Positions 31,221 through 64,000 of a stretch of DNA of 64,000 nucleotides are shown here, in pieces. Made by a program: the position numbers and the translations under genes. The stretch is taken from positions 5,580,001-5,644,000 of the forward strand of contig NC_092680.1 of the NCBI RefSeq assembly GCF_964355755.1. Direction: 5' to 3'. Within the stretch, counting starts at the first letter, position 1. Each line of letters opens with the position of its first letter. The notes under the pieces were generated by a model that saw nothing but the letters and a program-made list of their open reading frames with translations, searched no databases and was not told where the DNA came from. The DNA comes from Antedon mediterranea (lineage: Eukaryota > Animalia > Echinodermata).

Positions 31221-34200
31221 ATGAAACGAGAAGAGGTCGAAGCGTTTGTAGAACAAATCTTAGAATCAATTGGTGATTTTAAGAAGTACTTGCCGAAGCT
31301 GATAAAAGCAGTGAGTGAATTTGAAGAGGAAGAGGAAGACGAAAATGAGCGGAACATGCAAGTATTAACGGATGTTATTGAGCAAGTGCTTTCTGCTGCT
31401 GAAAAAAGGTGATACGACATGTTATTATATTACTACAGCATCATTTGATCGTTTTATAAGAGATAAGAGATCGTAGTTCATACATAGATGATTTTATAAT
31501 AACATAAAAATAAAATGTCTATATTTGTCTTTGAAATTGCTGTATGGCGTAACCAAAATCTTATCATAAAATTTGTTTGGATACAGCAAGGGTAAACAGT
31601 CAAAGGTATTCGCCGAACTTGCAGTTGCCATGGCAGAGAAGAAGATGTCTGAGTATTATCATATTCTTGAACGCTTATTTAGGGACCGGAACATCGTAAA
31701 TTGGAAAGTAAAAATTATTGTTTTAATTAAAAATGTTTACTAATGTATGCATGATTCCATTTCATTCTTTATCAAATTTAGACCAATTTATTAGTATAAC
31801 CTAATAATAATATAATAATATTTATTGGTTACTCTCCTTTAAAACGGAGGAACACTCTTGTAACAAGAGGTTCGACCCATTTTTGTACTAAACAGCCACA
31901 AGTCGCGTGCTCTCAGAAAAACATTTCAAAAAGTAATGTATATCAAAACAGTTTAAAAAGTACAGAAAAACGATAAAACGCATAGTGATACCGGACCGAC
32001 AGACAGACCGACAGACCGACAGATCGACCGACCGACATAGTGAACTATTGAGTCGCGTTCACGTGACTAAAAATCATGTTTCTGAGTTATCTATTTTATT
32101 TATTTAAGAATCAATCAACAGAAGCCATACAAATAATCGAGACGTTCATGGAACCGCCAGCAATTAAAATGACAAAACGTGATGAAAGTTTTTATGGCAC
32201 CGAGGAACCAGAAAGATATGAAATGTCGAGCCGAATCGAAGACTGCACAAACGTATTGGTAGAAGCATTCATGTAAGTATGGAAAGTTCTTACTTTGGAA
32301 ATGCAACTGTTCCGAGTTACCTCTTTGCCCGTCTTTGCTTTCCTACATATTCAGTATTTTATTTCTCCTTCAGAACATAGCAATCCATTGCATGACATAT
32401 CTATTTCAGCCATTATTTCATCCTCTTTCAATTCTCTACCAGTTGTTTTCATATTTCCTCAGACCATCTCTTCATCTCATTTTGGTTTGCCTCTTTTCCT
32501 TTTCCCTACCCTTTTCCATTAAATTATCATGGAGTCTTGCAACGTGGCCTGCCTATTTTCACGTACAGGTATGTTTGGAGCAGATTTTTATCTTTCCATT
32601 ATTACTTGAATGGTACTTTGTTCATTATTACTCAGCCAAGCTCTCTTCGTTCCAAAACTCAATAAGTCTCCACGTCAATCAAATCTAATAATCGTAATTA
32701 TTTATTTTTAACAGACGAGATAAGTTAACGAAAAAAGTTCAAATCCCACTTCTACGACTATTGATAAATTCTCTGAAGAAATCTGAGATTGTCCATCTTA
32801 TGATTGCCAAGGGATTGTTAGATGGTTGGGATTTTAATGTTGAAGTAAGTTGTTCGTTTAATTAATTTTAGTAATGAAGATTTAAAGACGCAACACATGA
32901 AAAAGGATAAAATCAAATATTTGATTTTTAAGAAATGTTTTTAAGAAATGGCCTAATTTATTTTCGTTAAAAAAAACATGAACAAAAAAAGACAAAATAA
33001 ACGGTTACATTTTACTGTGGTTGACTCAGGTAAATATTTGTTTAAAAATCTTATTTTCGGTCAAAATAAACTGTGGTGACATTAAAATGGCCTATTAAAA
33101 AATGCCTACTTGTGCACGTGAAGTTGTCAATCCGAAAAAATGGCGGTATCAAATAATCATCGTGTGCAAGGTTCAAAATATTTGGGAGTTTTCAGCATTT
33201 TTTGTAGGGTTGGGTTTTCATAAAATGTTTAATCATATAGGACGGTGACACTAAAACTCTGATACCCGAGTTACTAAAGACGGTTGATGAGTGGACAAGA
33301 AAGTTTGACGAGAAGTTGTCAAGCGACGAACATCCAATTGAAGAAAACTTTGCAACAAATTCGTTGACAACTGCATTCAACTCCAACTGGTAAGATACCG
33401 ACATCTGTTTTAAAAACATTTTGACCTTTTTTAAAATGTTTAAAACTCCAACAATATTTAACAAATTAAGTATTTTACCTATAAATTTTTCCTAGAATAA
33501 AATGTATACGTGTATCTATACCGTTCCACGGCTGTCATTGCAGGTAATACAACATAACAAAAGATAGCCTACTGTTCGCGTGCTTTTAATAGGATGGATG
33601 AAATTAGCTGGTCACGGACGAAGTGAATAACTGAAATAAATTGGCGTAAGCCTATAATCATAATTATGCTAATTCCATTTTTTAGCCCTCCCAAGTTATA
33701 CATTAACCATGTTATATCGATATGGAATAACACATTGACGAAAGAGTTAGACGGTCAGCCAATGAATGGATGGGGGTTAATTGCCAGTAGCATACTAGGT
33801 AATTTCATCGTTGCAAAGGTAAATATTTACTTTTACATTTACTTGCTCCCGTTTTATTATTCAAGCATCATTTGATCTAGCGCATTTTTCTGAGCGTTTT
33901 TATTTTATATTTATAGGCTACTAAGATTGATATGACTGATTTAGTTCCTGGTGTAATGAGGCTAATACGGACAGACATCGAGGTATTGAGAACACTTTCA
34001 TCTGGCGTTATAGCATCCATGTATCAAAAGATTGACGCACTCGTGCCTTGCGCAGAAGAAGTTGTTGAGGTTTTTCTGGACTGCGAAGACATGTTTTTTA
34101 TGGGAAGTATGTGCTCAGATTTTATAAATTTGTATATAATATAGATGTGCAGGCCTATATAATTTTGATGACGACAGCTAAAACAATAATAATATGTTTT

Positions 34201-37200
34201 CCTTTCGTGTAAATTAATTATATAATAATTACTATTTCTATACACATTAGTTGTATAATACAAAGAATTTAAAATAATTTACGTAATTATTTAGTCTCCA
34301 ACTTAGTTGAAAATTATATCTAATTTGTAGAAAAATAAGAAAGATGATGCGGAAACGTCGTAATTGTTATATTTATGAACCTTAATCGCATAATTGTGGA
34401 AAAAATTGTTTTATTTAGTGTCATTAAAGTCACTGTATGCTAAATGTCCTGAGAAAATTATGAGTAAAGTGGATTTAATCTTGAGAAAGTTACCAGACAT
34501 GGAAGATGCAAAGAAAACATACGTTTACCTATTATTGGATGATATTTCAAAAACTTCCCCCCAGGTAAGAAATAACCTCATACGACAAACAAAAAATTAA
34601 TAATAAAAACAAGTTTAACAATTCATAATAAAAATAAATTGTTATAATTGTTATTTATTAAAATAATATAATATATATTAATTTTTTTTTCTTTCAATAA
34701 AGAAAATAGATCGAATAATTATTAGCCTACGAATGAATTTTTTTCTAACTTCCATATTCTAGTAAGAAAGTCTAGTAGAAAAACAACTATCCAAATTTAT
34801 TTTTTTATACAGACACTTGCACCACACATTGAAACCTTAATGGAGGACATTGATGAGCCGGGTATTCAACACCACTTACTTATGGTTCTTGGCGAAATTT
34901 CTGCAAAATACCCAGAGAAATTTGTAAATCACGTTGAAAGTCTTACCAGGGTATTACAATCACAGCCAGTGGTATTGTATCACGTAGATAAAATTATTGC
35001 AAGTGTTGGAACCATTAATAAGGTAGGAATAATTGTCAGAAGTTAAACTCTAAATTCTTATTGCTATTCACTCATTCAACAGAAGACAATATCTGCTTAA
35101 TTACATCGTAATACAGATTTTAGACAAATATAATAAATTAAATAAATTGATTTATATAGACCTACTATTATAACAAATTTTTCTAGGAATGGGCAATCAA
35201 AATCCTAAATATTTTAGCTGATCAACTTCAGACAGTACAAGCATTATATCAGTCAATTGTTTTATTGGAGATGAAAAGGATAGGGCAAAAGTTTCCTGAA
35301 TGTTTAACAACCCACAGAGCTAAGATAGAGGCGATGAAGAACAGCCCGCAGATGGGGATAGGAGACCTGGTGATTTCACTAATAGATTTTATGGAAGGAA
35401 GAAGGTAAGTTATTGGAGAAAGACGTAAATTAAAAGACTGTGGGCGGCTAGCTGGCATAAAATATTACTAATTTATAGAGAAAATAGTACAGACTATCTA
35501 TATTGTATTCTGTAGTAACTCTTCTGAAAATATCACTAAACGTTGAAGATACAAGCACAAATACAATAATCTTATCTTTCTTGGTAAATTAGCTGTACAC
35601 AAAATACTGTATTTTCTATAGTCTAGGGGTTTTACACGAGGAAATTATAGACCAGCGAGAGGACATCGAAGTCCTAGACACACGGGTGACAGCCACGGAA
35701 AGTAATGTTGCAGAAGTTACAGAGAATGTTGAGGAACAAGGAATGGACATAACGGCGGTGAAAACAGACGTCGCAGAACAAGGAAAAGCGTTGGAAGAGT
35801 TAGAAGATGTTGTTGATGAAACCGTTGTAAAGGTTGATGAGATAGACCATAAGGTAAAGTAGTTTTGTAATTACTCGGTAGTAACGTATACTTTTTATTT
35901 TGGTTCATACTGCTACTCTGTATTGTTTTTAGACGATTACGAATGCCCCTAAATGGTCTCGTGATGTTTCAAAACTGCTAAATCCAGAAGCTGATTATGA
36001 TTGGAGATTTTTGGCGATACGTCTCGGCTATTCGGTCGAAGACATTCGGAACTGGGTGTTGTCACCCGACCCGACTATGGCAATTCTAGCCGAATGGTAC
36101 ACGACTCATAAAAGTAGCGATGCAACATATGCAATACTGACGGCGTTAGAAGATATGGGACAAACAGAGGCTGTAAAGATAGTTGAAGAATCTTTAGAAC
36201 AAGCAGGTAGGCCTAATCAAGAACACACACATAACAAATGTGATGTGACCGATACTATTTTAACGTTATCTAATTTGTTACTTACCATTAGTACACTTTA
36301 TAATGAAAATATTCAACAATAATATCCCTAATTTAGATTTTTATTGAAATCGATAGATGCAATGGTTCCGAAATTAGGACCAGAAATATCAGAGAAACCA
36401 CCAAAAGTATTCATTAGTTACCAATGGGATCATCAACCTGAAGTGAAGGCTGTAAGAGATCATCTCGAGATGGCAGGGTTTGCTTGCTGGATGGACATTG
36501 GTCAGATGGGAGGTGGAGATAACTTATATGCAAAGATCAATGAAGGAATGAGAGCTGCTAAAGTTGTTCTGTGTATGACAACTGAGAAGTATTCGAAATC
36601 AGAAAACTGCAACAAAGAGGTAAAAAGAAATTTACTGGGCTATACATCTACGACGCTTTTCAACAAATCTATATTATATAAATTTACGTAAGGGCAAAAT
36701 TCGGTAAATCGCGCCTTACTTCTAGAAAAGTTGGTTCGTACTTTCGGTACTGATTTTAACCGCCTGATGTAACCCTGTTTACTAATTAAATTGAGTTAGA
36801 TAATTAGTTATTGACGATTAAAACGAATTTAGGTTCAACGATTTGCCCCAAATAGGGGTGTTTTCCGATCGTGGTATACACTGTCTAATGGATGTCCATC
36901 TTGAAAAATACCCGCCAAAAAAATGCGAGGAGGCTTCGCATTTTTCTATCTCCTCCTACGATAATTGTTTTTAATAGCTGAAAACCGGTTGAACAGCTAG
37001 AGTACACCATCATAATGTTGAAGACAGGCCGATTTTCTTTAAAAAATACTATTTTGATAGATTTAATATACGATTATACAAATGTATTGATTTGCGATGA
37101 ATGGAACATCCCAATCTCTCAGTCTGCCAGAGTTTGGTTTAACACAAGTACTGTAGGTAAATTTATGAGCCCTTGGTTTAACACATACGGTAGGTAAATA

Positions 37201-40079
37201 TATGGGCCCTTTGAGAATAAACTTGCAATAGGTTCGGAAAATGTTAAAAACCAATTTATATTATTTGAATCGGTAAACAGTTTCCATTTATTATACATTG
37301 ATAATGAAACATGAAATATTCCTATTTATGTCCCTCGAGGTTCATTACAATTTATATTTAGTAGTCCCACGGACTTCATCTTAGCCACTCCCCCGAGTGC
37401 TAAGGCCAAATTTATGATACCCTACTTTCTATGTAAGTTTAGTTACAGTTAGTTCTTGATAATACAACGAATTTAGGTTACACCCTTCGGCCGCGAAAAC
37501 GTTTCTGTACAAATATGATACCGATTGGCTTTATTTCATTCAACAGCGACCATAATCTCGCCAATTACAGGATAGATAAACTATTTTATTATTGATGTGC
37601 TTATAAATTAAGACTCATGTAAACAGCTTGATTACATCATTTTACAGACAAACGAAACTTTTTTAAACCTACTGTTTCAATAACTGAGTATAATACTGTA
37701 TACGTTTTCATAAGTAAGTGCATATACATTTTCGTGTTTTCATTGACGAGATTGTAATAGTAACTTCAGTAACTATTACAGTACTTATTTATTATACGAC
37801 ACAAGACAATTGTATCTGACAGGTACGTACATTATTCTAAAAAATAAGTCTAGATAGATCCCTTAGGCGTCATAAATCACAGGCCAACAAATCAGTACTC
37901 ATGACAGAAATTCGACCCAGTTTGGTTCACACAAATGTTTACAGGAATTTCAACCACCACAACCGATGATTTGCCCTAAATATTTAGGTAGACTACAGTT
38001 TAATTTTTCACTGAATAGGAGCTTGAATTTCCGATTTCCATTTCGCAGAATGTCTAGGTCTATTTATTTAGTTTGGTTCTTATAATATATAAATACAATC
38101 AACTTTATTACTGCGGTTCCATCACCACCACCACGTGCCGCCCAATTCCCCGGTACATACATTTCCATTTCTCCCTAATTTCTTTAGTCCACATAAATTA
38201 ATTGTCCTTTATGGAATCCAGTATTGGTTTTGTTGTCTCTATTCTATTCTACTGTATTCGAGAACCATCTGTGAGCACCCCTAGATGGTACGCGAGCGAA
38301 GCGAGCGTGCCATCTAGTTATTTAAATTACTTTAAATACTAAATACTTTATTTTGTTTATCCTTATTACAGGTGAACTTGGCGAATCTGCTCAACAAGCC
38401 AATCATACCGATCCTTATTGAGCGTACAGCCTGGCCTCCAGAAGGACCAATGAGCATGCTTTTTGCACAGCTTCTTTACATTCAATTTTTCACGGATAAG
38501 GATTACGTCAGAGGAGATAAATTCTGGGTTGATGCCAAGTTCGCTGAGTTATTGGCGCAAGTTAGTTATTATGCTTCCCCTGATCCAGATAAAATAACCG
38601 ACGGTAGGTAATTTTACTCGAAACTTTGTTTTAGAAACACTGAAAACATTGTCGTCACTCATTATCGTTATGATACTGCAGATACTTTTTAATGAATGTT
38701 CGTTTTCATCAAGAATCGAGTGACAATCGATTAAATTATTTTTCCAGAATACAAAAGTTGGGTACCAACAGTTGAAACACCTGACAAAGAAATAAAGAAA
38801 GCCAAGAAAGATGAACAAAGTGGTGAAACAAGCGCTTTAGCTTCTCAACCGGTACGTAGGTCCCACATAAATTACACAATAAACCTAACTTCACTGAAGC
38901 AATTGTTTTAAGGGTAGTTTAGTCCCCTTAACAGAAAAATCATTTATAGGGTATTGTATTTTTTTTATCAGGAATACCATATTTTTCTCCTCACCCCGGA
39001 CAAACCCGCTATGGACTGGTTCTCTTAAACATATAAATAAATAGGAATAAATGGAGTGGTGTGTTTAGCAGCTATATTTTTAAATACTGAAAGGTTCATA
39101 AACAAACTCTTTTCCAAATATATTAGTTCTCTTCTTTACTTAGAAAGCGGAAATCGAACCAGAGGTCTTTATATCATACCAATGGGATCATCAACCGCAG
39201 GTTAAGGTCTTGTACAAACGACTGACCAGTCTTGGTTATTCGTGTTGGTTGGATATCAAACAAATGGGCGGTGGAGATCCATTATATAGTAAAATTGACA
39301 AAGGTCTTCGCAAAGCTAAGGTAATCCAATTTTTATTTACGTTAAGTTTTTGATATGCAGATAGGTTACCTCACAAAATGAACTTTGAAGAGTCAACTCA
39401 GTTTTAATTTTAATTACTAGAATAAACGTTTTTAAGTAACTAAATCAGTAAATCTATGTGTTAAAAAGACAAAACTGGGATTGGAAGTGGCTGGTTGTTC
39501 ATTTTGTATAGGCCTACGTACTATTTTAACAATAATAGATTTAGAGATAAAGATAAATAATGCACATCTCCAAAACAAAGACGTTAAAGACAAATTTCTC
39601 TATTTAAAACATTCTGATACGCATTAATGTATTGAAACTTATAGGTTGTAATTTCCTGCGTTACACCGAAGTATTCATTGTCAGCCAACTGCCGTCGTGA
39701 AGTCAGTCTATCAGATGCTCTCCGTCGACCAATCATTCCAATCCTTCTCCAGCAGATGGCGTGGCCACCAGAAGGTCCAATGAGCATGACATTTACGCAA
39801 CTTCTCTACATAGACTTCACCAAGGAGTCAAATCAGGAAAGTTTTGCTGACGAGAAATTTGACGAACTTATTGCAAAAATTAGCGAGCATTCGCAGCCTG
39901 TAAAAGGAGGTGACACTCCTGCTAAACCATCTGCACCGGAATCAGTTTCTGGTGAGCCGAAACCCGAAGAACCAAAGTCCGAAGATCTAAAACCCGATCA
40001 GGTACAGACTCCTACAGAAACTCCGTCTGAACAAAAAAAGCAGCAACCTAAACCATCTAAAAGATGCTGTGTTTCATAA
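31221..40079 (+). CDS. Gene A: helical repeat (ARM/HEAT-like)-coiled coil-Death-TIR-TIR-CCaX protein, 17 coding exons, ~1121 aa
   Basis: Exons 31221-31408, 31587-31707, 32109-32272, 32715-32844, 33241-33389, 33686-33818, 33917-34106, 34419-34564, 34813-35022, 35187-35404, 35622-35853, 35933-36206, 36357-36619, 38372-38603, 38748-38851, 39144-39320, 39645-40079. All introns are GT-AG with consistent phases; total 3366 nt. Death: [29 protein letters not shown]1: [27 protein letters not shown]2: [24 protein letters not shown]. Ends KRCCVS. Confidence 0.9.
36668..38317 (+). mobile_element. Non-autonomous Helitron in intron 13 of gene A
   Basis: 5' TCTATATTATATAAA; 3' hairpin ctagatggtacgcgagcgaagcgagcgtgccatCTAG; A/T insertion site. 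The equivalent intron in gene B (48344-48460) lacks it. Confidence 0.88.
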
Positions 40080-42491
40080 CTTCTTTTTAAATGACATCTG
40101 CCGGTGATTTTATAATAATTCAGTGTGTGCTGGGTGGTAACCGGTTAATGCTGTAATTTTCTTCTTCATCTACATTTATACTGCATAATTGTATTCATGA
40201 GAAACCTTTCATAATTACTCAGTTAACATGATCGAGATAGATATTATACATTGAAGTTGTACTGAATTCCATTGCTGGTAAATTGTAATATAGGCATATG
40301 AAATCATTATAAGGACATGTTGAATGGAATTTTTTTTTCTACAATTACAGATGTCTTTTTGTATATGATATGTTAGATAGTGCAAAGAGTTATTGTTGAT
40401 CATAGATCACAAAACAAATGGTGGAGGTATGTTTGAAATAAAATACATTAGTATAATGAGAGCGAAACAAACAATATCGGGAGTGATGCCAGTCACAATT
40501 TTTTTTGTATTTGCCAGTTACAATTTTAACAATTGTATCAGTATGTCTAATGTTTCTAAATCTTAATTATTTTGTTTTGGAAATATATTGCTGGATTAAA
40601 TTTACAATTAATATCGTAAATTTTAATATTTTCACTCTCTATAGACCTTAATCTGTATTTCAATTACTGAATTATATTTTGATTTAAATAAAATGTTGAA
40701 TTTTTAATTAAAAAAAAGCTTCCCGTCGTACACTATTAATACATTATACAACATTATTTATTTGTTATATTATATATTTTAGTATATACATTGTTACGTA
40801 GTATGCATATAAAGCAACCAACTGTCTGTTGGCCTCCTAATTATAATACCAACACAATAAGTTATCATCTTTTCCATCTAATTTAATTTTTATTTTTGTT
40901 AATAAAAAAAATGCAATCGGTCCTCTAACCTACAATGTTGGAAAAAAGATAAATATATTAGTTAAACTAATCAGAATTACGAAAATGGTTTTGAACGCGA
41001 TTTCTTTCTGTTATATTATCTACATTACATTGCTACACATCACCATAGCAATAGCAATATTATTTGTCGTTACGTGTAATCAATATTTGTTTAGTTATTG
41101 TTAATATTCCGGTTCACTGATTCATACAAACCCAGCAGTTGTAAGGCTAAGCCAGCAGTATGCTGAATGGTTTAAACTATTTAGCAGAAACCAGTGCTTA
41201 AATAAATTAATTAATTAATTACAGAAGACAAGATATTGAGCTGTATAAGGTAATTATGATAATTATTTGATATGACGTGAGATACACTTTTATTATAATA
41301 CGGATACTGTATAAGAATGCGGTTAACAGGGACACACTGTTCTGTCATGTGGACAATCGAGATTGAAGGAGACTACACGTGTGCTGCAATGACAATAGCA
41401 AATAGTCACATAATATTAATTAGGCTGTTCTTATATGGAAAATATTTATATAGGCCATTGTTTATAACATTGCGATAAAGAGTCTATGTATGAATACTAC
41501 GATAAAGCTGTTGTTTCTGCAAGGGGTTTTTTTAAATAGATTGGCAAGCAAATGACAGATTGGGGGCAAAGTACGTAAGCATAAGGTACCCAACCGATAA
41601 TAATCCATGCTTTTATTATTATCAATTTAAGCATTGAAGTAACTAAGATACGGAATACTGTATTACTATACAATCAAAACACATTAAAGAAGGCTGCTTT
41701 ATACACTAATATAATGACATGCATGTCACATTAATTTGATCAATATAGTGTACACGTACCCACTTCTCTTACCACACGATATGCCTACTAATTATATTAC
41801 AGTATAAATAAGAAAACGGGATTCAAATTAAGAATAAAACGGGACAGGAATAAATGGTCAAATAAATACCTAAATGTATATGCTTTAATAAAAACAAAGA
41901 TACTAATATAGAAGCATGTTATTTAAACAAATCCCCTTTGTTTGAAATAGCTACAGTCATCTCACTATACAAACTTAAATCACAGTAGGTCGGTTTAAAA
42001 GGTGTACACAATACGATACACAACAAAAAAACAGTAGGTTATCAGATAGCGATATACAAGGTAACCTTATGTACCATTATTGAAATTTTGCCTACGTCAT
42101 TTCCAATCCAAAGTAGTATATATCTTTTAAGGAACTGACTAGCTATAATAATACTATAAGATCCTTCTTTGACAGGAAGACGCACTACATCGAAACAATC
42201 CGTTCATTGAGTTTAAGGTAAGTTTTGTGGGTTTATGGATTTTCACTAAGGGTCAGTTCACGTAAAGCTCATTATTTAAAGCTAAAGAAACATTTTCTAC
42301 GTGAATGACTGGAGCGAATGATAATTTTTTTAAGCTTATTAGTCTTATCATACTGGTGTATGCTACACTAAAAATAAGCAATTTTGGCCATTTATCATTA
42401 CTAAACCCAACACTAACATCCATCGACTTGAAGGGAAATAGGTCTATCTCATCAAATATTATAATAATTTTCAGCAACAACATTAATCACC

Positions 42492-52476: not shown

Positions 52477-53071
52477 TAATAATAATTATTATTATATTCA
52501 AATACATTTATTGTGTACTAGTGTGTTATAGCAATCATGTGGTTTATTTGAATTTAAACTAACTAAATTTAGTTGAATTTAATGAACGTAATAGCGTAAA
52601 GAAAATTACACGAAAGACTATTAATTATTTCTTTTTTTCTAACTTTTGAAAACGTTTCGTTTCGTTCGTTTCGTTCAATGTTTGTTTTAAAAAAAACACA
52701 AAAAAACAATGCAGTAACAGTAAGCTTAGTTTGCTATATGTATGTATCCCAATAAATAAATTAATATGAGATGTTCTTGAGAGCGATTTCTATCTATTAT
52801 AATATCTACCTAACATTGATTATTACATCACCATGGCAATACTAGGCAATATTATTGTTTGTAGTATAATTAATTGGTTTATTGTATTGTTGATGATGCG
52901 GTTCACTGATTTCTAGCCAGCAGTACGCCTACTGTGGCAGTATGGTGGAAATAAGAAGAAATAAGCAGCAAGTACTTAGGTTGATACTGAGCAATAGCTA
53001 AGGTAATTATGATAATTAGTGCTTAAGAACGTGAGAAGACTACTATAGTAATACTTAACTACTGTATAACC

Positions 53072-56000
53072 TGTGACATTCGTCCAGCTATTCTCACAGA
53101 TCACCAGGCGGTATCAATTAAAATAGATTTGCATGAAAAAATACGCGGTCCTGGTTTATGGATTTTCAACAATAGCTTTCTGAAAGATGAAACATTTACA
53201 AAATTAGTAATTAAAATAATTGATGTTTCAATACTAAAAAATAATAGAGAACCTGTAAGTGCAAGTTTGTTATGGGAGCTTGTAAAAACAAAAATAAAAG
53301 AATTTTCAATTGCATACGGAAAACAAAAAAATAAAAACCAGAATAAAAAGAAAGAAACATTACAAAAACAAATAAAAAACTTAACTGAAACAATTATGAA
53401 TACTCAAAATTGTGATATAACCATTGAAAATAAAATTGAAAACAAAAAAATAGAGCTTGAAAACATTTATAATATAGAAGCAAAAGGCGCGCAAATTAGG
53501 TCCAGAGTAAAATGGATAGAGGAAGGCGAGCGGAATACAAAATACTTTCTTGGGTTAGAAAGATCCAAAAGTAAAAAGAAACACATAAAAAGTTTAATTA
53601 CTAAAGATGGGAGCTTAGCAACGAGCCCAATTGATATTTTAAAGGAACAAATACAACATTTCGAAGGTTTATACGCAAAAAATGTTATAAACCCTGGAAA
53701 AATTAATAAATACCTTTGTAAATCTATTATAAACAAGCTTTCAGAAATAGAAAAAGAAAATTGTGAAGGTTACGTCACTATTGATGAATGTAAAAAGGCC
53801 ATTTCAATGATGGAAAAAAATAAAACACCTGGATCGGATGGTCTAAGTGTTGAATTTTATGTGTTCTTTTGGAATAATATTAAACATTTAATTTGCGATG
53901 CGTTAAATGAAAGTTATAATTCTCAAGAATTATCCTTTTCGCAAAAACGAGGTGTAATCACCCTTTTGTTCAAGGATGGAGAAAGAGAAAATTTGAATAA
54001 TTGGCGTCCCATTACCCTCTTAAACACCGATTACAAAATTCTTGCACATGTATTAAGTAACAGACTTAAAATGGTTATTAAATCAATAGTAAGTTCAGAC
54101 CAAAAAGGTTATATAAAAGGCCGTTTCGCTGGTGAAAACATTCGGTTAATAGAAGACCTGCTTTATTATACAGAGTGTAATGATATCGAAGGGGCAATAA
54201 TTACCGTAGATTTTAAGAAGGCTTTTGACTCTATTAGTAGAGATTTTATGTTCAATGTTCTAGAAAAGTTTAACTTTGGAATGTTCTTTTGTAACTGGGT
54301 AAAAGTATTATACAATAACGTTGAATGTGTCACAGTTAACAATGGTTGGGTTTCAAACAATTTTAAAATGGAAAGAGGTATTAGACAAGGTTGTCCTCTA
54401 TCTGCTCTGTTATTCATTTTAGTGGTTGAAGTAATGGCATCTAGAATAAGAAACAAAGATGACTATAAGGGTATTAAACTTCCAAATAATGAAAATAACA
54501 TAGAAGCTAGAATAAGCCAATTAGCCGATGATACTATTTTGTATGTTGGTAATGACAAAAGTATTAAGTCAGCAGTCAGTGTAATTGAACGTTTTTGTGA
54601 AGTATCTGGAATGACACTAAATAAAAAAAAAACCAATGCTTTTTGGATTGGTAAATGGAAGAACAGAATAGATAGACCTTTAGAATTAAATTGGGTAAAA
54701 CACCCGATCAAAATTTTAGGCATATATGTAGGGTATAATACAGAAGAATGTACCAGAAAAAACTGGGATGTTAAATTAATAGAGCTAGAAAAGACTTTAA
54801 AACAATGGAATGCTAGAAATCTCTCAATTTTTGGTAGAATAATAATCCTGAAAAGTCTTGCACTATCTAAATTAACATATGCTGCAAATATCACTGATGT
54901 TCCAAAATATGTATATACAAAAGTTACAAATCTAATATATAATTTTATTTGGAACAATAAAAGGGAAAAGATAAAAAGAAAAACTCTAATTGGTGATGTT
55001 GAGATGGGAGGCATTAAAATGCCTGATTTTACTCTTCATGTTAACGCACTCATGTGTGGCTGGTTAAAAAGAATTATGAATGATGATGGTGCTAAATGGA
55101 AAAATATTCCAATGTATTATATTAAAAAAATATGTGATGTTAATGTTTTACTTAATATGTCATGTTATAACATTATTGATGTTAATTCTGATAAAATTCC
55201 ACTGTTTTACAAAAATATGATAAAAGCCTACATAAATTATAACAGAATCTCTAAAAAAAAACCTGAAACTTATAACGATATAATGAATGAGCAACTGTGG
55301 GGAAACCACTACGTTAAACTAAAAAAAAAAATCGCTTTTCTACAAGCATTGGATTGACAGTGGCATTATCAGTATTAAAGACATTGTTAATAAGAACACT
55401 TTTTTAACATCAAACGAAATACTGGTGAAACTACAATGTAAAACAAACTGGTTAAATGAGTATTTGTGCATTATTAAGGCAATACCAATTCAATGGAAAC
55501 GTATTATTAAGGAGGTAGATATTTTCAATTGTGATGATAATGATGAATTAGTTGGGACCAAGTATGAGATTAATACTACCAAACTAATATACTCATGGTT
55601 TGTGAAAGAATATTTCATTATTCCAATGTCACAACTAAAATGGGAAGAGTACTTCAATGATAACAACATTGATTGGAAAACTTCTTGGTTACGGAAAGTA
55701 TGTAAAATGAAAGATAAGAAACTAGCACAATTCAATTATAAGATGTTACATAGAATACTGCCTACCAACAAACGGCTGTATCAGTGGAAAGTTAAGGAAA
55801 CACAAACGTGTGACAAATGTGGAGAAATTGAAAACGAAAATCATTTGTTTTTTAGTTGTAGATTTATTCAGAAATATTGGAGGAAAATGCTTAGTATCTT
55901 TGTAAGTTTAAATCACAATAATATATCATTTAAACAATTAATACTAGGAACGGGAGATAAGCTAATAGATTATATTTACACTTTTGCAGCATTTACTATT

Positions 56001-57059
56001 TATAGAATAAAAATGTTATCTGCACTAAATAAGCCAGTGGGTAAATCTTTATGGAATTCATTTAAAAGCAATATGTTATATAACATTGAATGTGAAACAT
56101 ATAACAATAAAGAAACAAGTATAGAAAAATGGGTAGCTTTAAGAAATAAGATTATGATAATATAATTTCCAATTTTTATACGATTAACTGAAAAAGAATT
56201 ACAGTGATACGGGTTACTGGTGGTACTGAGCTATTATTGTTTTTTTTTTTATCATGTATATAAATATATTGTATAATCCGGGTTGTAAAATGAAAACAAA
56301 CAAATGAAAATGTGTGAACTATTTTAAAACGGGATAGATGATAATGATGATCCTGTCAAGTGTATAACAAAATATAAGAAAATTAATGAAAAAAGGAGTA
56401 ATACAGAATTCATATATGTAAAAATGTTACTTATGAACTGTAACGACATTTACAAGTTAAATAATACGATTTTATGTAATATGAGATAATATGAATGTGA
56501 ATAAAAGTGGTGTTTGCGCCACAAAAGAGAAAAAAAAAATTTACTATTTATAGAATAAAAATGTTATCTGCACTAAATAAGCCAGTGGGTAAATCTTTAT
56601 GGAATTCATTTAAAAGCAATATGTTATATAACATTGAATGTGAAACATATAACAATAAAGAAACAAGTATAGAAAAATGGATAGCTTTAAGAAATAAGAT
56701 TATGATAATATAATTTCTAATTTGATACGATTAACCGAAAAAGAATTACAGTGATACGGGTTACTGGTGGTACTGAGCTATTATTGTTTTTTTATCATGT
56801 ATATAAATATATTGTATAATCCGGGTTGTAAAATGAAAACAAACAAATGAAAATGTGTGAACTATTTTAAAACGGGATAGATGATAACGATGATCCTGTC
56901 AAGTGTATAACAAAATATAAGAAAATTAATGAAAAAAGGAGTAATACAGAATTCATATATGTAAAAATGTTACAAGTTAAATAATACGATTTTATGTAAT
57001 ATGAGATAATATGAATGTGAATAAAAGTGGTGTTTGCGCCACAAAAGAGAAAAAAAAAA
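53072..57059 (+). mobile_element. 5'-truncated Tx1/L1-clade LINE with duplicated 3' end, poly(A) and TSD
   Basis: Begins at the end of the endonuclease domain (TDH..GPGLWIFNNSFL). TSD ctactgtataacc is at 53059-53071 and 57060-57072. Poly(A) tracts are at 56530-56539 and 57050-57059. Confidence 0.93.
53129..56165 (+). pseudogene. LINE ORF2 remnant (reverse transcriptase plus C-terminal zinc knuckle), one frameshift
   Basis: KTPGSDG, NWRPITLLNTDYKI, DFKKAFDS, GIRQGCPLS, QLADDT, ILGI. Frameshift in the A-run at 55321-55331. CDKCGEIENENHLFFSC is a CCHC motif. Confidence 0.92.
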
Positions 57060-57566: not shown

Positions 57567-60500
57567 ATGAAAAGGGCAGAGGTCGAAGCGATTGTAGAAG
57601 AAATCTCGGAATCAATTGATGATTTTAAGTACATGCCGAAGCTGATTAAAGCAGTGACTGAATTTGAAGAAGAGGAAGATGTCAAAAAGCTGAACATGCG
57701 AGTATTGAGAAATGTCATTGACAAAGTACTTTCTGCCGCTAAGAAAAGGTTTGTCATGTTATTTAAATTGTTTAATAACTAACAGGAATAGTATCATGTA
57801 GGTCTAGATACTAAGTTAAAACTTGGTATCTGGCCTACATGGAATGGTATAAGCGAATAGTTAAGGGCGTATTTACACACAACACAAATAGGTTAAGCTT
57901 CCAAGTTTATTCAGAGTATACATATTTAACAATACATAATATTTATTTCTACTGATACTGTACAAGCAATGCTAAAAACTACTAAAGCTTAATAATAAAC
58001 TACATTTTGGCCTCTTGGGGGCTACCACTCATATGAAATCGCTGTATGAAAGGTCCAGTGTGTTGTCACAGGAGCCAGTAAATCAAATGGTTGTTATTAA
58101 GTAGGCCTATATCGGTAAGTTCGTGACATCCGTTAGGTAAGTTGTGGAATTTGGGGGCAAAATAATTCCCCAGAATTATACCAGCCAAATTAGCGAATAA
58201 CATGAGTAACATATGAGTAGCGCCTGTGTTGAGTTAGGTGTTGGATGATGCCGGGGGATGGCTGGGTGGGAAAGATTGAAAAGTTTGTACAACTATCGAA
58301 CGGCTAGTTTAACAATGAAGTGTGCTAGTATGCATCTTAGTAAACAACTGAAAACACACTGAATTCTCATTGGTTGCCAATTAGAAATTAGCCTATCCTA
58401 CATTTTTGTGGTTCCACTATTAGATATACCCGTAATGATCTATAGAAATACATTGTCAATTACTGTGGTTGGAACTTTGATTAAGGGTCTCCCTTGACTA
58501 ACATTCCGTTTTAATTACCTGTAAAAACAATATACCATTCATCCTAACACTTCTATTACTCTGAAATCTACCCACATTTATATACCACATCCTTAGTTAA
58601 AAGAAAGTACTTGTGCTGTGTATAAACTATAATTTATTACTTTAAATTTCCTTTTATTTACTCAATTAGAAAATCCACTAATCCTTCTAATTTGTTGCAA
58701 TAATAAGTTATTGGTGGACAACCCTTAAAACATTATAATATTTAATTCATTTATTTAATAATAAAGAGGCTTAACATTTAAGACCAAATAGTTCAGTACA
58801 TAACAGAAACTGCTGGAACAAAAATACTTCTACCAGATTCTCAGTGTATCTCCAAATATTTAAAGTATCATAGGGATATTTAATAATACATGTAGCATCT
58901 CATTTGAGTCACATGTGGTGTCTGCATCATGCAGTGTCTGCATCATACAATGTTAGGTTAAAGTATATGATACTACTGTAGGAGAAACATGTGAAACAAA
59001 TGTGATGTTGTATTTACCATTATGATGATACTAGCGAAATCTATATATAGTACCGAGAACCGGGGGATACTTCTTTGTGTTGTAGACGGATACATATTAC
59101 TGTGCGTCCAGTCTTACTAGATCCTCTACTATCTGTTAATAAAATTATAAATAATGACCAATTTAACCAAAAAACAATGCATATTTTCTTTTAAATTGTT
59201 GAAATTCGTAAAACAAATATGTATTTAAATTTGTTTGGATACAGCAAGGGTAAAGAGTCTAAAGCATTCGCCGGACTTGCAGTTGCCATGGCAGAGAAGA
59301 AGATGTCCATGTACTGTCGCAGGCTCAAGAGCTTATTTAACGACCGGAACATCGTCAATTGGAAAGTAAAACTATTTCTTTTTAAGGTTTTAAAGGTTCT
59401 CATCTAGTCTAGTTTAAATTAGGATAAATTACTTATCTTTTTTCATACGCTGTTTAGGGTCACCCTCTATAACTAAGGTGTAATAAAAAAAATAAAAAAT
59501 GGGGAGATGAACAAGTTGCTGCATTCTCACTCTTCTCCTATTATTAGTCGTTATGAGGGCTTTTGTAAAGCGATTCATAGAGGGCACTTACTTTTTATCA
59601 TGTGACACAATCGTCCAATTAAATAAAAGGAATCTATTTTAGGTGTTATATAATAGGTTTTATTTTGTTTACCAATTAAGTTTTTTTTTATAAACAAATA
59701 CTCTCAGTACAGTTTTTAATTTAAAAGTCTGGATTACTATCTATTGTTCTTCAGTTTTCAGCCAATATATATTTTATCTTGTTTGTTAAGGACCACTCCA
59801 CAGAAGCTATACAAATAATAGAGACATTTATTGAACCACCAAAAATCAAAATGACTGACGATGATGAACGTTGGTATGGCACTCGCAGACTAGAAGAATG
59901 TGAAATGTCTAAACGAATAAAAGATTGTGCAGAAGCAATGGTAAAAGCATTTTTGTAAGTACGCTTAAAGATACATTTCGCCCCTTAAAAGACAACCCGT
60001 AAGTAAGGTAGGATGAAGTATACTCAATTTGTATTAATTTTATGGGGTGGGTACGAAAAGGTTTTTGTTTTCATATTTCTTTTTCACCACCAATCCATTG
60101 GAGGACTGCAGATAATATCTGGAGAACCCACGCCCACGACACAAACGTATCTCGACGTATTCGAGAGTACAAAATAAACGTTTCAATTTAAAACAGAGAA
60201 CCAATTTAAACATACAGTTTTATCATTACTGTAATAGTAAATGTTCGTCTTTATCTCTTTTCCTTTATTAGACGAGATAAATTAGCTAAGAAAATTGAAA
60301 TCAAGCTTCTGCAACTGTTGATAAATTGTTTTGAGAAATCGGAGGTTTTTCATCTTATGATTGCCAGGGGAATGTTATATCAATGGAATTTTAAGCCTGA
60401 AGTAAGCTATTTATAGTTTAATTTTGTGTCTAAGAAGGTTTAAATAGTGCAACAAAGCCAGATTGAGTAACATTCGTTTTTGACCGAATTGACTTGAGCC

Positions 60501-63500
60501 CGAGATGACTTGAGGCCGAGTTGACTTAAGGCACAGTTGACCTGAGGCCCAGATGAATTGGGGCCGAGTTGACATTGGCCGAGACGGTTTAGAGTCGACT
60601 TGGATCGAAATCCATGTGTGCTAGAGAAACTAATAAGCAAAGCTTATTACTGTTAGTTGTTACGCAAACAAAATAAATTTGTAATAATTTTATAGAAATG
60701 TATATAGTACATGAGTTTTTTTATACCTGTACATTTATCATACTCTAAAAGTAATTTACAGGATTATTTTCATAAACGGAGGATGAGGTTCTAAATATAA
60801 TTTCGAATAATGAAATTGACTACTCTAACATCTAATGGAAAGGTTAATGTTGGTGTTTTCAAACGGGTGTGGTGCAGAATTATCTAATCAGTAATTAATG
60901 TTTGTATACCAAAAGGACAGGACTCTGATACCCAAGTTGATAAAGACTGTTGATGAGTGGACTAGAAAATTTGATGAGATAATGTCTAAAGACAACCCTC
61001 CCTACCAAGTAACCATTGTAGAGAAATCGTTGGAAATTGCATTTAATTCCAACTGGTAAGAAAGCAATGTTATTTAATTTATATCATGAAAATATAGAAA
61101 TATAATTTTAAACAATTTTGATAAAGAAGATGTCAGTTATGTTATTATACTGTAATTTTTATTCTCAATTATATAATTATATACCCTAGGTTTATTTTTA
61201 TTTTTTTAGTAATGTGTTTTGTTGTGGGTCCCTGCGAGACAAGTTTTTAACTTCTAGAAGGGATCCATGATAATAATGACTACAACTTACTGTTTTATCT
61301 ATGTTCACTTTAATATTTTTTTCTATTTTGTATATGTTCATTCATTATTATCTGAATAAATGTTATCTGAACTTGAATCTTACATCAATGAAGTAAATTT
61401 GAAATGGTCAAAAAATTGACAATTTTGAATTAAAATACTCATTTTCGTTACTCCATAAGCTACACATTCATGGCAAAGTAAAAGCTTTCCAATTTAAAAA
61501 CCTACACAAACTTATTTTTACAAATGAAAGATTGTTCAGAATCGGTTTAACTGAATCCGACTTGTGTTCCTTTTGTAAAAAAAAGAAAGACAATTTACTT
61601 CATATATTTGTGTATTATAACATGTGCCGCCCTTTATGGATATTTCTTAAAAACCTTATATTTTAACGAACAGGAAATTTAAGTAATGTAAACAATGAAA
61701 TAATTATTAGGTTTGGAGACAAAGGCTAATTAACAAAATATTATATTTATGACTGCAGAATTAAAAAATAATGTACCTTATTTAAAAGCCTTAAAATTCA
61801 TATTTAACAGATTATAACAAATTTTAGATCTTGCTTAAGTGGGTAGTGAATTATGGGTGCTCTATTCTGTATTCTTTTATTTAAATGTGTTTTTTTTTTG
61901 TATGTATAAAAGATATGAAAATAAAAAAATAATAATAATAATAATAATAATAAAACCAAGCTTTAAACGGTACGCCATTGTTTTTAGTATTCCACCTTAG
62001 ATCTATTAATCTTTCTCATTTCAGTACGTAATTATTACATTTCTAAAGTTACTGTGTTTACGTTCAGTTATTAACAGAAAACGGTTTTAAAATGGAAAGT
62101 TTTAAAAAAAAAGTAAATATCTTGGACTGGTGTTATTGGTGGTTAAAACTTGAGGTATTTAGGCCATGCTAATGTTACTTTTTTTTCGTCTTATTTTTAG
62201 CCCTCCAAAATTATACCTAAACTATGTTGTAACAATGTGGAAGAATGCATTGACAAAAGAGTTAGAAGGTCAACCATTGACAGGATGGGGGATAATAGCA
62301 TGTGAAATACTAAATGGACTCATAAATCAGAAGGTAAATATTGCTCCCTTTCCTCAAATTTAAGAAATTTTGGATAGGGTTTAATAAACTTTACAACAAT
62401 ATTATACTTGTGCTGTGTGTTACAACTGACTTTAATCTTGAATTTTAGGCATTTTGTATTAAAGATACGTAATATCAAATAACATCCAATTCATCACTAA
62501 TTCTTCCTATCATTATCGTTTTCTTCGTCTTATTTTTTGGCTAGAATGGAATAATGACTTGAGAAATGCATTATAAATTATTGTTTATAATAATAACTTT
62601 AATAATAATAATGTACACATAAAAATATACATACATACATTTTCAGCAGAAAAAAAAAATACAATTATTAAATAATTATGTTTTATGTGCACATTTTAAA
62701 TGTTTGTAACATAATATTCTTTTAAAATATTTTTTTCACTTTTTGTGAGTGTTTTTATTTCATTACAGGCTTCTATGTTTGATATGACTGAGTTAGCCCC
62801 GGGTGTAATGACTCTAATACGGGCGGACATCGATAGGTTAACTTCTTCTGCGTGTAGAGTGATATCATCCATGTACGAACAGATAGACGCACTTGCGCCG
62901 TGGACAGAAGAACTCGTTGACCTTTTTTTAGACAACGATGAGATGTGTACTAGTATAGGAAGTATGTGATCAGATTAACGCTGCATTCACACTCTTTCAC
63001 AAGCGGAAGGCGGCGCCATTTTGTTCAATATTGGAAAGTGATTTTAAGAAATAAACGGTGCCGTCTTCCGTCTCGTAAAATGGAACAAGTTTGAATATAG
63101 CGTTAATAATCTCGATGTACGCCTATTAGTATTTAATCATCAATGAATGATAATGAAAATAGTCCATGTTATTAAACTAAATTTGAATTTAATAGTCTTC
63201 ATTATGACGTCACATTACCTAATTATCATATCAGCTCAAAATTATACAATAAGTTGGAACCATTGCATACAGTACACTGCTATATTATACACAAAGAATT
63301 ATAACGTAAAACAACATTGTGTATCTTTCAAAAGAACTTATTACTTTTGAAAGTATTTTAAAGACACAACTTATTTAGTCTACAACTTATCAATGGAAAT
63401 AGGATTTTTTCTTCTTCGTTGTCAATAAACCATTACTTTTATTATTGCCATCGGTCCCTTAATTTGTAGGAACATCAACATATTAATTAATTAAATTTCA

Positions 63501-63732
63501 GTATATCACCAGGCGGTTTAGAATTACTATTCTTTGCCTAATTTGTTTATATATATATATATTATTTTTTTGCACTTTATTTGTAGTGTCATTAAAACCA
63601 CTGTATATTAAATGTCCTGAGAAGATTATGAGTAAAATGGATTTAATCTTTGAAAAGTTACCGGACCTGGATGCGAACAGGAAACGATACCTTTATCTTT
63701 TCTTTGACAATATTTCGAAAACTTCCACTAAG
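57567..63732 (+). CDS. Gene C: third paralog of the Death-TIR-TIR family; first 8 coding exons only (continues beyond the window)
   Basis: Exons 57567-57748, 59245-59365, 59791-59954, 60272-60401, 60916-61055, 62201-62333, 62769-62961, 63587-63732. Phases match genes A and B, and I found no stops. The exon 5 acceptor is shifted and less certain. Confidence 0.82.
60480..60605. repeat. Degenerate ~16-bp tandem repeat (gagttgacttgaggcc), probably a transposon subterminal array
   Basis: About 6-7 imperfect copies, GC-richer than the flanks, in intron 4 of gene C. Confidence 0.55.
61380..61955 (+). mobile_element. Decayed 3' fragment of another L1/Tx1-like LINE in intron 5 of gene C
   Basis: Translates KAFQFKNLHKLIFTNERLFRIGLTESDLCSFCKKKKDNLLHIFV (zinc-knuckle region) and ends in aataaa + (AAT)n. 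Confidence 0.7.
62975..63106. mobile_element. Small palindromic MITE just after exon 7 of gene C
   Basis: ttaacgctgcattca / tgaatatagcgttaa termini with inner inverted gcggaaggcggcgcc / ggtgccgtcttccg. Confidence 0.55.
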
Positions 63733-64000
63733 GTAAGGCAAGAACAAACTGATTCATGGTCCAAACTTTGTCTTTACTTTTGAAACATCTCTTCAGTTCA
63801 AATCAAACATGTTTTCAAACAATATGACAATAAGGATTTATTTAATCATTATTACTATTATCAGTATTTATTCCAGCAATGGTGAGCTGAGATTTTATAG
63901 GTCTAAAGAACTGCAATAACATAAATTACGGTAAAAGCAAAACAACCAAATTCTTGCACCTGACAATGTAATCTTCAATTTGAAAATATATCAGTTATAT

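What the first reader, a model, noticed from the sequence alone, without database searches (positions are those of the whole stretch)
31221..64000. Tandem family of helical-repeat/coiled-coil/Death/TIR/TIR/prenylation proteins: a candidate membrane-anchored, SARM1-like immune NADase with an architecture I do not recognise
Seen: manual splicing of genes A and B gives, in order, ~550 aa of helical Leu-rich sequence, a heptad coiled coil (exon 11), a Death domain (exon 12), two TIR domains and a C-terminal CCaX box. Known: MyD88 is Death-TIR with no N-terminal helical region and one TIR. SARM1 is ARM-SAM-SAM-TIR, with ARM autoinhibiting an NAD+-cleaving TIR. Inference: this looks like a sensor/autoinhibitory solenoid, an oligomerisation module (CC + Death in place of SAM) and a tandem TIR effector tethered to membranes, expanded to at least three copies. 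The ARM/HEAT call is the weakest part.
Basis: partly seen in the sequence, partly recalled or inferred. Interest (0 to 1): 0.9.

Follow-up and report, generated by a model that had tools for sequence, protein, structure and literature searches.

The report
Membrane-anchored twin-TIR immune genes, feather star
Three side-by-side feather-star genes encode a large protein of an already catalogued but barely studied invertebrate family (repeat solenoid, coiled coil, Death domain, two TIR domains), which has a conserved lipid-anchor motif and likely acts as a membrane-bound danger sensor that would cut NAD+ when switched on; this enzyme activity is untested.

Summary
Gene A (17 exons, 31221-40079) splices to 1121 aa, identical to a RefSeq protein of the crinoid Antedon mediterranea. 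Gene B is intact, gene C runs off the window, and a fourth copy lies outside it. The order is alpha-solenoid (AlphaFold pLDDT mostly above 90; adaptin/HEAT-like), 78-aa coiled coil, p75NTR-like Death domain, TIR, TIR, CaaX. RNA-like contigs join exons 6-17.

The architecture is not new. It is the published ecTIR-DC family 6 (ARM-like/Death/two TIR), named 'MyD88-like L1/L2' in sea urchin, with relatives in echinoderms, hemichordates, molluscs, annelids, nemerteans and rotifers.

Not found in the papers I could read: CaaX in 58 of 70 members; the SARM1-type catalytic Glu in both TIRs in 58 of 70; TIR sequences closest to enzymatic TIRs (SARM1, AbTir, Cat1); paralog changes concentrated on the solenoid's predicted inner helices; and a Death-TIR-CaaX cassette shared with ROCO proteins.

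The most likely mechanism is a prenylated, autoinhibited sensor that oligomerises and cleaves NAD+ (about 0.5). A scaffold adaptor remains a strong rival: the Glu occurs in over 70% of all TIRs and SARM1's pocket Trp is Asn here. It is not a SARM1 or MyD88 ortholog.

The parts
31221..40079 (+). Gene A coding span, 17 exons: 31221-31408, 31587-31707, 32109-32272, 32715-32844, 33241-33389, 33686-33818, 33917-34106, 34419-34564, 34813-35022, 35187-35404, 35622-35853, 35933-36206, 36357-36619, 38372-38603, 38748-38851, 39144-39320, 39645-40079; 1121 aa
   Evidence: GT-AG, open frame, identical to RefSeq P0001; 11 of 16 junctions in RNA-like contigs
31221..35404 (+). Gene A exons 1-10: alpha-solenoid, aa 1-549; seven adaptin/HEAT-like helix pairs of 33-37 aa period in aa 301-546
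   Evidence: importin-alpha/ARM solenoids, Z 23.1, rmsd 5.8, 356 aligned; beta-COP, AP-3 delta, SF3B1, E 0.0015-0.03; Adaptin_N E 5.3e-06 in P0004, below cut-off
35622..35853 (+). Gene A exon 11: 78-aa coiled coil (11 heptads; a = Val/Ile/Leu, d alternating Leu/Val and Gln/Thr); predicted oligomeriser, possibly a trimer
   Evidence: weak PDB profile hits to coiled coils gp26, UspA1, sigma-1, cavin, Lpp (their trimeric state is recalled)
35933..36206 (+). Gene A exon 12: Death domain, closest solved relative p75NTR
   Evidence: PF00531, E 1.3e-10; p75NTR Death domain, E 2e-07
36398..38581 (+). Gene A TIR1 (aa 733-876, exons 13-14); putative catalytic Glu806 at codon 36617-36619
39159..39893 (+). 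Gene A TIR2 (aa 924-1060, exons 16-17); putative catalytic Glu996 at codon 39699-39701
40065..40079 (+). Gene A C-terminal CCVS CaaX box and stop codon, after a basic stretch and a low-confidence, likely disordered tail
42492..50559 (+). Gene B, 17 exons (42492-42676 ... 50074-50559), 1137 aa, ends CCVL; coiled coil 47280-47511, Death 47677-47950, TIR1 exons 48081-48343 and 48461-48692, TIR2 exons 49166-49342 and 50074-50559
   Evidence: intact, GT-AG; equals RefSeq P0002 after exon 1
57567..63732 (+). Gene C exons 1-8 (solenoid part; the gene continues beyond the window)
   Evidence: open, equals the first 403 aa of P0004, 1174 aa, ending CCVL
53027..57059 (+). LINE retrotransposon remnant between genes B and C (RT and zf-RVT in two frames, duplicated 3' end); not part of the immune gene

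Best explanation
These are three tandem crinoid copies of the invertebrate ecTIR-DC6 / 'MyD88-like L' gene, whose protein is likely held on a cell membrane by a predicted prenyl anchor and likely works like SARM1, as an autoinhibited sensor that would cluster its paired TIR domains and cleave NAD+. Shown here: gene structure, domain order, solenoid fold (predicted at high confidence), family membership, and conservation of CaaX and of the Glu in both TIRs. Inferred: (1) the basic tail plus CaaX is prenylated, mostly geranylgeranylated, with the extra Cys possibly palmitoylated; (2) the HEAT/ARM solenoid binds a trigger on its concave face and keeps the TIRs off; (3) the coiled coil and Death domain take the place of SARM1's SAM ring; (4) TIR1 and TIR2, joined by a linker of conserved length, form head-to-tail composite active sites that consume NAD+, giving either cell death or an ADP-ribose-type signal; (5) duplication varies the sensor while the effector stays fixed.
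For: Catalytic-position Glu in TIR1 in 61 of 70, in TIR2 in 66 of 70, and in both in 58 of 70 aligned members (14 of 84 rows lacking a full Death+TIR+TIR were dropped first). It aligns with SARM1 E642, and the W-P motif with SARM1 W662 (via the relative P0107), and with the Glu of Cat1 and PdTIR; this Trp is present in 67 of 70 TIR1 and 66 of 70 TIR2. In PDB sequence searches the TIR hits are AbTir, TcpB-type, PdTIR, Cat1, SARM1 and Roq1; no MyD88, TLR or MAL TIR is among the 60 of 63 rows shown or the 29 rows. The Glu is rare (<10%) in MyD88 and TIRAP (PMC7075850). TIR active sites span two TIR domains (PMC11364022); the TIR1-TIR2 linker is 39-52 aa in 60 of 70 though poorly conserved in sequence. 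CaaX ends 58 of 70 members, against 0.4% Cys in the adjoining tail; X is Leu or Ile in 46 of 58. Gene A vs B dN/dS is 0.05 in Death+TIRs and 0.28-0.31 in the solenoid. Among the four Antedon copies, non-core positions vary in 38 of 58 B-helix and 21 of 62 A-helix sites (p 0.0009); 3 of 6 paralog pairs from other echinoderms show the same, 0 of 6 between-species pairs do. TIR1 groups with the TIR of NHR-ROC-COR-Death-TIR proteins (SH-aLRT 98), of which 12 of 16 also end in CaaX, so one effector cassette sits under different N-terminal modules. Homologs are gill-enriched in two bivalves.
Against: No enzyme assay, localisation or challenge data were seen. The Glu is present in over 70% of all TIRs, including over 90% of TLR1/2/6/10 TIRs, and does not track activity. 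SARM1's ligand-binding Trp four residues before the Glu is Asn in 59 of 70 TIR1 and 62 of 70 TIR2. By structure, TIR2 is tied between non-enzymatic and enzymatic TIRs: TRR-2 Z 17.6 / rmsd 2.8 / 126 aligned, IL-1RAcPb 17.3 / 2.6 / 136, SARM1 16.6 / 2.1 / 128, MyD88 16.2 / 3.0 / 129. Foldseek's SARM1 matches have TM 0.11-0.14 and rmsd about 30, which reflects domain order only. dN/dS is nowhere above 1, even on B-helix surfaces (0.31); the helix test was post hoc, 3 of 6 outside paralog pairs were not significant and one of them was reversed. A Death domain normally recruits partners, which suits an adaptor. 12 of 70 members lack CaaX and 12 of 70 lack one or both Glu. The coiled coil has pLDDT 39-48 over aa 585-629 in the monomer model.
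Confidence: 0.5

Rival explanations
1. It is a non-enzymatic, membrane-tethered scaffold: a fused sorting-plus-signalling adaptor (MAL and MyD88 in one) whose TIRs bind the expanded invertebrate TLRs or other TIR proteins and whose Death domain recruits kinases or other Death proteins, or damps them.
For: This is the reading in the literature (PMC6836662; PMC9334734; GenBank name 'MyD88-like'). It is co-expressed with TLRs in clam gill. The TIR fold is as close to TRR-2, IL-1RAcPb and MyD88 as to SARM1. The pocket Trp is missing. The Glu is common in inactive TIRs.
Against: TIR sequences are closer to bacterial and SARM1-type enzymatic TIRs than to MyD88/TLR TIRs. The Death domain is p75NTR-like. 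The Glu is kept in both domains across deuterostomes and spiralians, whereas MyD88 and TIRAP lack it.
Confidence: 0.33
2. It is an enzyme of the same layout, but not for pathogen defence or not an NADase: for example a metabolite or stress sensor in neurons or epithelia, or a hydrolase of cADPR-like nucleotides, as shown for the twin-TIR protein Raw.
For: SARM1 acts in axon degeneration, and Raw's two TIRs hydrolyse cADPR rather than NAD (abstract and passages of PMC13455253). The altered pocket (Asn for Trp) could change the substrate. Starfish and the second crinoid each gave one hit.
Against: Separate multi-copy sets in Antedon, sea urchins, sea cucumber, Glandiceps and Dimorphilus, paralog-biased change on the solenoid B helices and gill enrichment fit immune genes better.
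Confidence: 0.14
3. The long product is a splicing or annotation artefact and the solenoid exons are a separate gene.
For: Junctions 1/2 to 5/6 were not seen in the rows shown, and the RNA-like contig begins at exon 6; RefSeq gives gene B a different first exon.
Against: One contig joins exons 6-12 and an overlapping one joins 12-17. RefSeq gives the identical 1121-aa product. Exon phases match in genes A, B and C. The whole architecture recurs in dozens of species.
Confidence: 0.02

Closest known systems
ecTIR-DC family 6 (Gerdol et al. 2017, PMID 28109746; original not held, definition seen as a passage in PMC6836662) = sea-urchin 'MyD88-like protein L1/L2' (UZG77129.1, UZG77126.1) = Aplysia 'MyD88-like with Armadillo-type fold' (LOC101850562, PMC9334734)
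   Same: Long ARM-like N-terminus, central Death domain and two TIR domains, no transmembrane segment; 48% identity to sea-urchin L1; nested in one tree with L1, L2 and the Aplysia protein.
   Different: Four recent Antedon copies, three of them in this window. The coiled coil, CaaX box and catalytic Glu are not mentioned in the passages I read; the 2017 and 2023 primary papers were not held and may mention them.
SARM1 / TIR-1 (ARM-SAM-SAM-TIR NADase)
   Same: N-terminal helical solenoid, central oligomerising module, C-terminal TIR with aligned E642 and W662 equivalents; top full-length Foldseek match.
   Different: No SAM domains; coiled coil plus Death domain instead; two TIRs; C-terminal CaaX; W638 equivalent is Asn; adaptin/HEAT-like rather than demonstrably SARM1-like solenoid; TM only 0.11-0.14.
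MyD88 (Death-TIR adaptor)
   Same: Death domain directly followed by a TIR domain.
   Different: Death domain nearest p75NTR; TIRs score with TIR_2 (E 3.6e-49) far above PF01582 (E 9e-04) and keep the Glu that MyD88 lacks; 630 extra N-terminal residues, second TIR, CaaX.
NHR-ROC-COR-Death-TIR proteins (ROCO 'MyD88-like' of Aplysia, PMC9334734; hits in oyster, tick, nemertean)
   Same: Related Death-TIR cassette (TIR1 clade, SH-aLRT 98) with the Glu and a CaaX end in 12 of 16.
   Different: N-terminal Neuralized and ROC-COR GTPase domains instead of solenoid plus coiled coil; a single TIR.

Membership tests
ecTIR-DC family 6 / MyD88-like L | Long N-terminal region with Armadillo-like repeats | tested here: met
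   AlphaFold solenoid; importin-alpha Z 23.1, rmsd 5.8, 356 aligned
ecTIR-DC family 6 / MyD88-like L | Central Death domain | tested here: met
   PF00531 above cut-off
ecTIR-DC family 6 / MyD88-like L | Two TIR domains, no transmembrane segment | tested here: met
   PF13676 with two stretches; no dedicated transmembrane predictor was run, but the model is a soluble solenoid plus globular domains
ecTIR-DC family 6 / MyD88-like L | Sequence kinship with named members | tested here: met
   Sea-urchin L1 E 1.9e-43 on the Death exon alone, 48% overall; Aplysia LOC101850562 E 2.3e-187; tree. The family's original definition could not be read.
SARM1 | Tandem SAM domains between ARM and TIR | tested here: not met
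   The central region is coiled coil plus Death domain; no SAM Pfam hit at E 0.01 in P0001 or 10 other members
SARM1 | Catalytic Glu (E642) | tested here: met
   Glu806 and Glu996; 61 of 70 and 66 of 70
SARM1 | Pocket Trp four residues before the Glu (W638) | tested here: not met
   Asn in 59 of 70 TIR1 and 62 of 70 TIR2
SARM1 | ARM domain homologous to SARM1's regulatory ARM | tested here: inconclusive
   Full-length Foldseek matches have low TM; generic solenoids fill the VIA lists
SARM1 | NAD+ cleavage released by loss of ARM autoinhibition | not testable with these tools
   Needs biochemistry
MyD88 | Compact Death-TIR protein with one TIR and N-terminal Death domain | tested here: not met
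   1121 aa, Death domain at aa 628-718, two TIRs
MyD88 | MyD88-type TIR (Box 1 F-D-A-F-I-C-Y, Box 2 R-D-V-L-P-G, Glu rare; PMC7075850) | tested here: not met
   Box 1 is V-F-I-S-Y-Q-W, the BB loop is D-I-x-Q-M-G-G-G-D, and the Glu is conserved
MyD88 | Binds TLR TIRs and recruits IRAK kinases | not testable with these tools
   Needs interaction assays
CaaX-prenylated proteins | C-terminal Cys-a-a-X with upstream basic residues | tested here: met
   58 of 70 members; two or more Lys/Arg in the preceding 10 aa in 48 of 58. The modification itself is untested.

The most novel reading that the evidence does not exclude
ecTIR-DC6 proteins are a second, SARM1-independent class of animal TIR NADases: prenylated intracellular immune receptors in which a paralog-diversifying HEAT solenoid senses a pathogen or damage ligand, a trimeric coiled coil plus Death domain nucleates assembly, and a built-in TIR pair supplies composite active sites. 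With the ROCO-Death-TIR-CaaX and LRR-Death-TIR proteins they would form a modular, plant-NLR-like sensor-effector system in echinoderms, hemichordates and spiralians that is missing from the usual model animals.
Probability: 0.33. Interest if true: 0.82.

Novelty: new member of a known kind. Interest (0 to 1): 0.47.

Why it matters
[quoted passage not shown] This family has been read as a TLR adaptor. Its conserved Glu pair, fixed-length TIR linker, CaaX anchor and variable solenoid make a cheap, specific test for an NAD+-based immune effector in invertebrates, including farmed molluscs and sea cucumbers. As a locus it is an ordinary lineage-specific expansion of a catalogued family.

Tried and rejected
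No whole genome was held, so copy number beyond the window rests on four RefSeq proteins from a contig of the same length.

The single-sequence AlphaFold model was unusable (pLDDT 39.9); the 84-sequence model (83.8) was used.

Complex prediction for the coiled coil plus Death domain was not available, so the oligomer state is untested. The ESM Atlas did not answer.

No run was on record as RNA. X1 is a guessed RNA run, and its depths were not used as expression levels. RNA support for junctions 1/2-5/6 and for genes B and C remains open.

Positive selection was not found: dN/dS was 0.26-0.51 in the solenoid and coiled coil, and 0.31 on B-helix surfaces of A vs B.

SARM1's ARM domain and MyD88's Death domain were not listed in the VIA or PDB profile tables; absence from a capped list is not exclusion. 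The second half of TIR2 alone found no TIR in the PDB. The region search of aa 250-627 gave only 8 echinoderm proteins of this family.

Papers not held: Gerdol 2017 and Chou et al. 2023 on sea-urchin MyD88 homologs (its citation was seen in a reference list). Either may already report the CaaX box, localisation or function. Paper searches that found no NADase or prenylation report for this family, judged from listings only; some searches were uninformative. No supplements were read.

Earlier-findings look-ups were empty. The family tree is a quick tree without bootstrap, and long branches (Ptychodera, Adineta, Helobdella) are unsure.


Full report
OBSERVATION. Reading the window and splicing by coordinates gives gene A: 17 exons from 31221 to 40079, all 16 introns GT-AG, 1121 aa. 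Gene B (42492-50559) has the same exon phases and gives an intact 1137 aa. Gene C exons 1-8 (57567-63732) are open and run off the window. A search with the Death exon returned P0001, identical to gene A and annotated as an uncharacterized protein of Antedon mediterranea, plus three more Antedon proteins on a contig of the same length: P0002 = B with another first exon, P0004 = C, and P0005 = a fourth copy. In run X1, whose kind is guessed as RNA, two overlapping contigs carry 11 of the 16 junctions (exon 6 to 17), none of which appear in run X2. The first five junctions were not among the rows shown.

ANATOMY. Pfam finds Death on exon 12 and TIR_2 twice. With an 84-sequence alignment AlphaFold gives mean pLDDT 83.8 and an all-helical N-terminal 550 aa, mostly above 90. 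Structure searches match it to ARM solenoids (importin-alpha Z 23.1, rmsd 5.8, 356 aligned), while sequence profiles give weak hits to beta-COP, AP-3 delta and SF3B1 and Adaptin_N; the repeat period is 33-37 aa. I call it an adaptin/HEAT-like solenoid. Exon 11 is an 11-heptad coiled coil with beta-branched a positions and Gln/Thr at alternate d positions. Its weak PDB hits are coiled coils I recall as trimers, so a trimer is a lead only. The Death domain is closest to p75NTR (E 2e-07). The TIR1-TIR2 linker and the tail have low pLDDT.

FAMILY. A full-library search gave 187 proteins at E up to 1e-30. Profiles show the whole order solenoid-coiled coil-Death-TIR-TIR in dozens of them. Named members come from all five echinoderm classes, hemichordates, molluscs, annelids, a nemertean and rotifers; only 20 of the 150 listed hits were looked up, so absence from other phyla is not shown. 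The four Antedon copies form one clade (SH-aLRT 99) sister to the single Anneissia hit, and sea urchins have their own multi-copy set (quick tree).

The architecture is in print. PMC6836662 (passages) describes an ARM-like/Death/two-TIR gene as characteristic of ecTIR-DC family 6 and as gill-enriched; PMC5549309 (passage) also finds family 6 high in mussel gill. PMC9334734 (passages) lists Aplysia LOC101850562 as MyD88-like with an Armadillo fold, and that protein is my hit P0062. Sea-urchin members carry the GenBank name MyD88-like protein L1/L2. The two primary papers were not held.

FEATURES BEARING ON MECHANISM. I counted on the 70 of 84 aligned rows that cover Death and both TIRs. The Glu at the catalytic position is present in 61 (TIR1), 66 (TIR2) and 58 (both). 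Alignments place it on SARM1 E642 and on the Glu of Cat1 and PdTIR, and place a conserved Trp on SARM1 W662 (SARM1 numbering counted from the alignment of the relative P0107; the role of W662 in NAD binding is recalled). PDB sequence neighbours of the TIRs are bacterial, SARM1 and plant TIRs.

Against this, the Trp four residues before the Glu, which binds ligand in SARM1 (PMC7075850 passage), is Asn in 59 and 62 of 70. The same paper warns that the Glu is present in over 70% of all TIRs and does not track activity. By fold, TIR2 is tied between TRR-2, IL-1RAcPb, SARM1, IL-18Rbeta and MyD88 (Z 16.2-17.6). Enzymatic TIR sites form between two TIRs (PMC11364022 passages), and the linker here is 39-52 aa in 60 of 70, which would allow an intramolecular pair; the model's coordinates could not be inspected for this.

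CaaX ends 58 of 70 members, against 0.4% Cys in the nearby tail; X is Leu or Ile in 46, and two or more basic residues precede it in 48. From general knowledge of CaaX proteins this predicts geranylgeranylation, with farnesylation for gene A's CCVS and possible palmitoylation of the second Cys.

EVOLUTION OF THE COPIES. Between genes A and B, dN/dS is 0.05 in Death+TIRs and 0.28-0.31 in the solenoid; dS is also lower in the 3' part (0.27 vs 0.43-0.57), which may reflect gene conversion. Among the four Antedon proteins about half the solenoid positions vary, against 5-8% in Death and TIR. Non-core positions of the second (B) helices, which line the concave face in HEAT solenoids (established knowledge; A/B assigned from the model's helices), vary in 38 of 58 sites versus 21 of 62 for A helices (p 0.0009, stable over thresholds; 5 of 6 Antedon pairs p below 0.01). 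Three of 6 paralog pairs from other echinoderms agree (p below 0.05), two are not significant, one is reversed, and 0 of 6 between-species pairs show it. The test was post hoc and dN/dS stays at 0.31, so this suggests, but does not show, a diversifying binding face.

The nearest sister proteins are NHR-ROC-COR-Death-TIR and LRR-Death-TIR proteins. TIR1 groups with the ROCO TIRs (SH-aLRT 98), and 12 of 16 single-TIR Death proteins checked end in CaaX. One membrane-anchored Death-TIR cassette thus appears under several N-terminal modules.

MECHANISM. Most likely (about 0.5): a prenylated protein on a cytosolic membrane face; the solenoid binds a trigger and restrains the TIRs; coiled coil and Death domain oligomerise; paired TIRs cleave NAD+, causing cell death or making a nucleotide signal. 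Only the anatomy and conservation are shown; every functional step is inferred. Rivals are a non-enzymatic TLR adaptor or regulator (0.33), an enzyme with another substrate or a non-immune role, as for the twin-TIR cADPR hydrolase Raw (0.14), and an annotation artefact (0.02).

VERDICT. A real, intact, transcribed (gene A) tandem cluster and a new member of the known ecTIR-DC6 / MyD88-like L family. It works like SARM1 in layout but fails SARM1 membership (no SAM domains, no W638 equivalent) and MyD88 membership. The interest lies in the untested NADase and prenylation hypotheses for a widespread family, which I did not find reported in the searches named under Tried and rejected. Interest 0.47.

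Noticed in passing
window 63-24527 (+): Tandem array of at least six long single-ORF immunoglobulin-domain proteins (2-3 Ig domains by Pfam) with an apparent transmembrane segment and tyrosine-motif tails, plus broken copies near 5543-6813 and 13018-13866; looks like an expanded receptor cluster next to the TIR genes.
   Followed up: partly
window 53027-57059 (+): LINE remnant with RT and zf-RVT in two frames and a 94% identical duplicated 3' end (55991-56539 / 56539-57059). It lies downstream of sequence shared with gene B's upstream region (52771-53069 vs 40985-41314), so likely inside gene C's 5' UTR intron.
   Followed up: partly
window 40065-40076 vs 50545-50556: Gene A ends CCVS while B, C and the fourth copy end CCVL: a predicted switch from geranylgeranyl to farnesyl type; only 3 of 58 family CaaX boxes end in Ser.
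   Followed up: no
window 39900-40064 and 50330-50544: The tail before CaaX is a Pro/Glu/Lys-rich repeat of very different length among the four Antedon copies, a likely flexible tether.
   Followed up: no
window 42492-42676 vs RefSeq P0002: RefSeq starts gene B with a different short first exon, although an intact exon homologous to exon 1 of A and C is present (84% nucleotide identity to A); alternative start or annotation error.
   Followed up: partly
proteins P0141-P0174: Sister proteins with Death-TIR, several shown to be NHR-ROC-COR-Death-TIR (oyster, tick, nemertean), mostly end in C-x-x-C-a-a-X; a prenylated ROCO-TIR class that may deserve its own look.
   Followed up: partly
proteins P0084, P0086, P0097, P0099, P0105, P0108 (Ptychodera, Adineta and unnamed): Divergent family members have lost the Glu in one or both TIRs; possible decoys or one-active-site pairs.
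   Followed up: no
window 36600-38350, 49505-49852, 61403-61666: Introns hold high-copy repeats (very high depth) and retroelement-like fragments (zf-RVT at 61403-61666).
   Followed up: no
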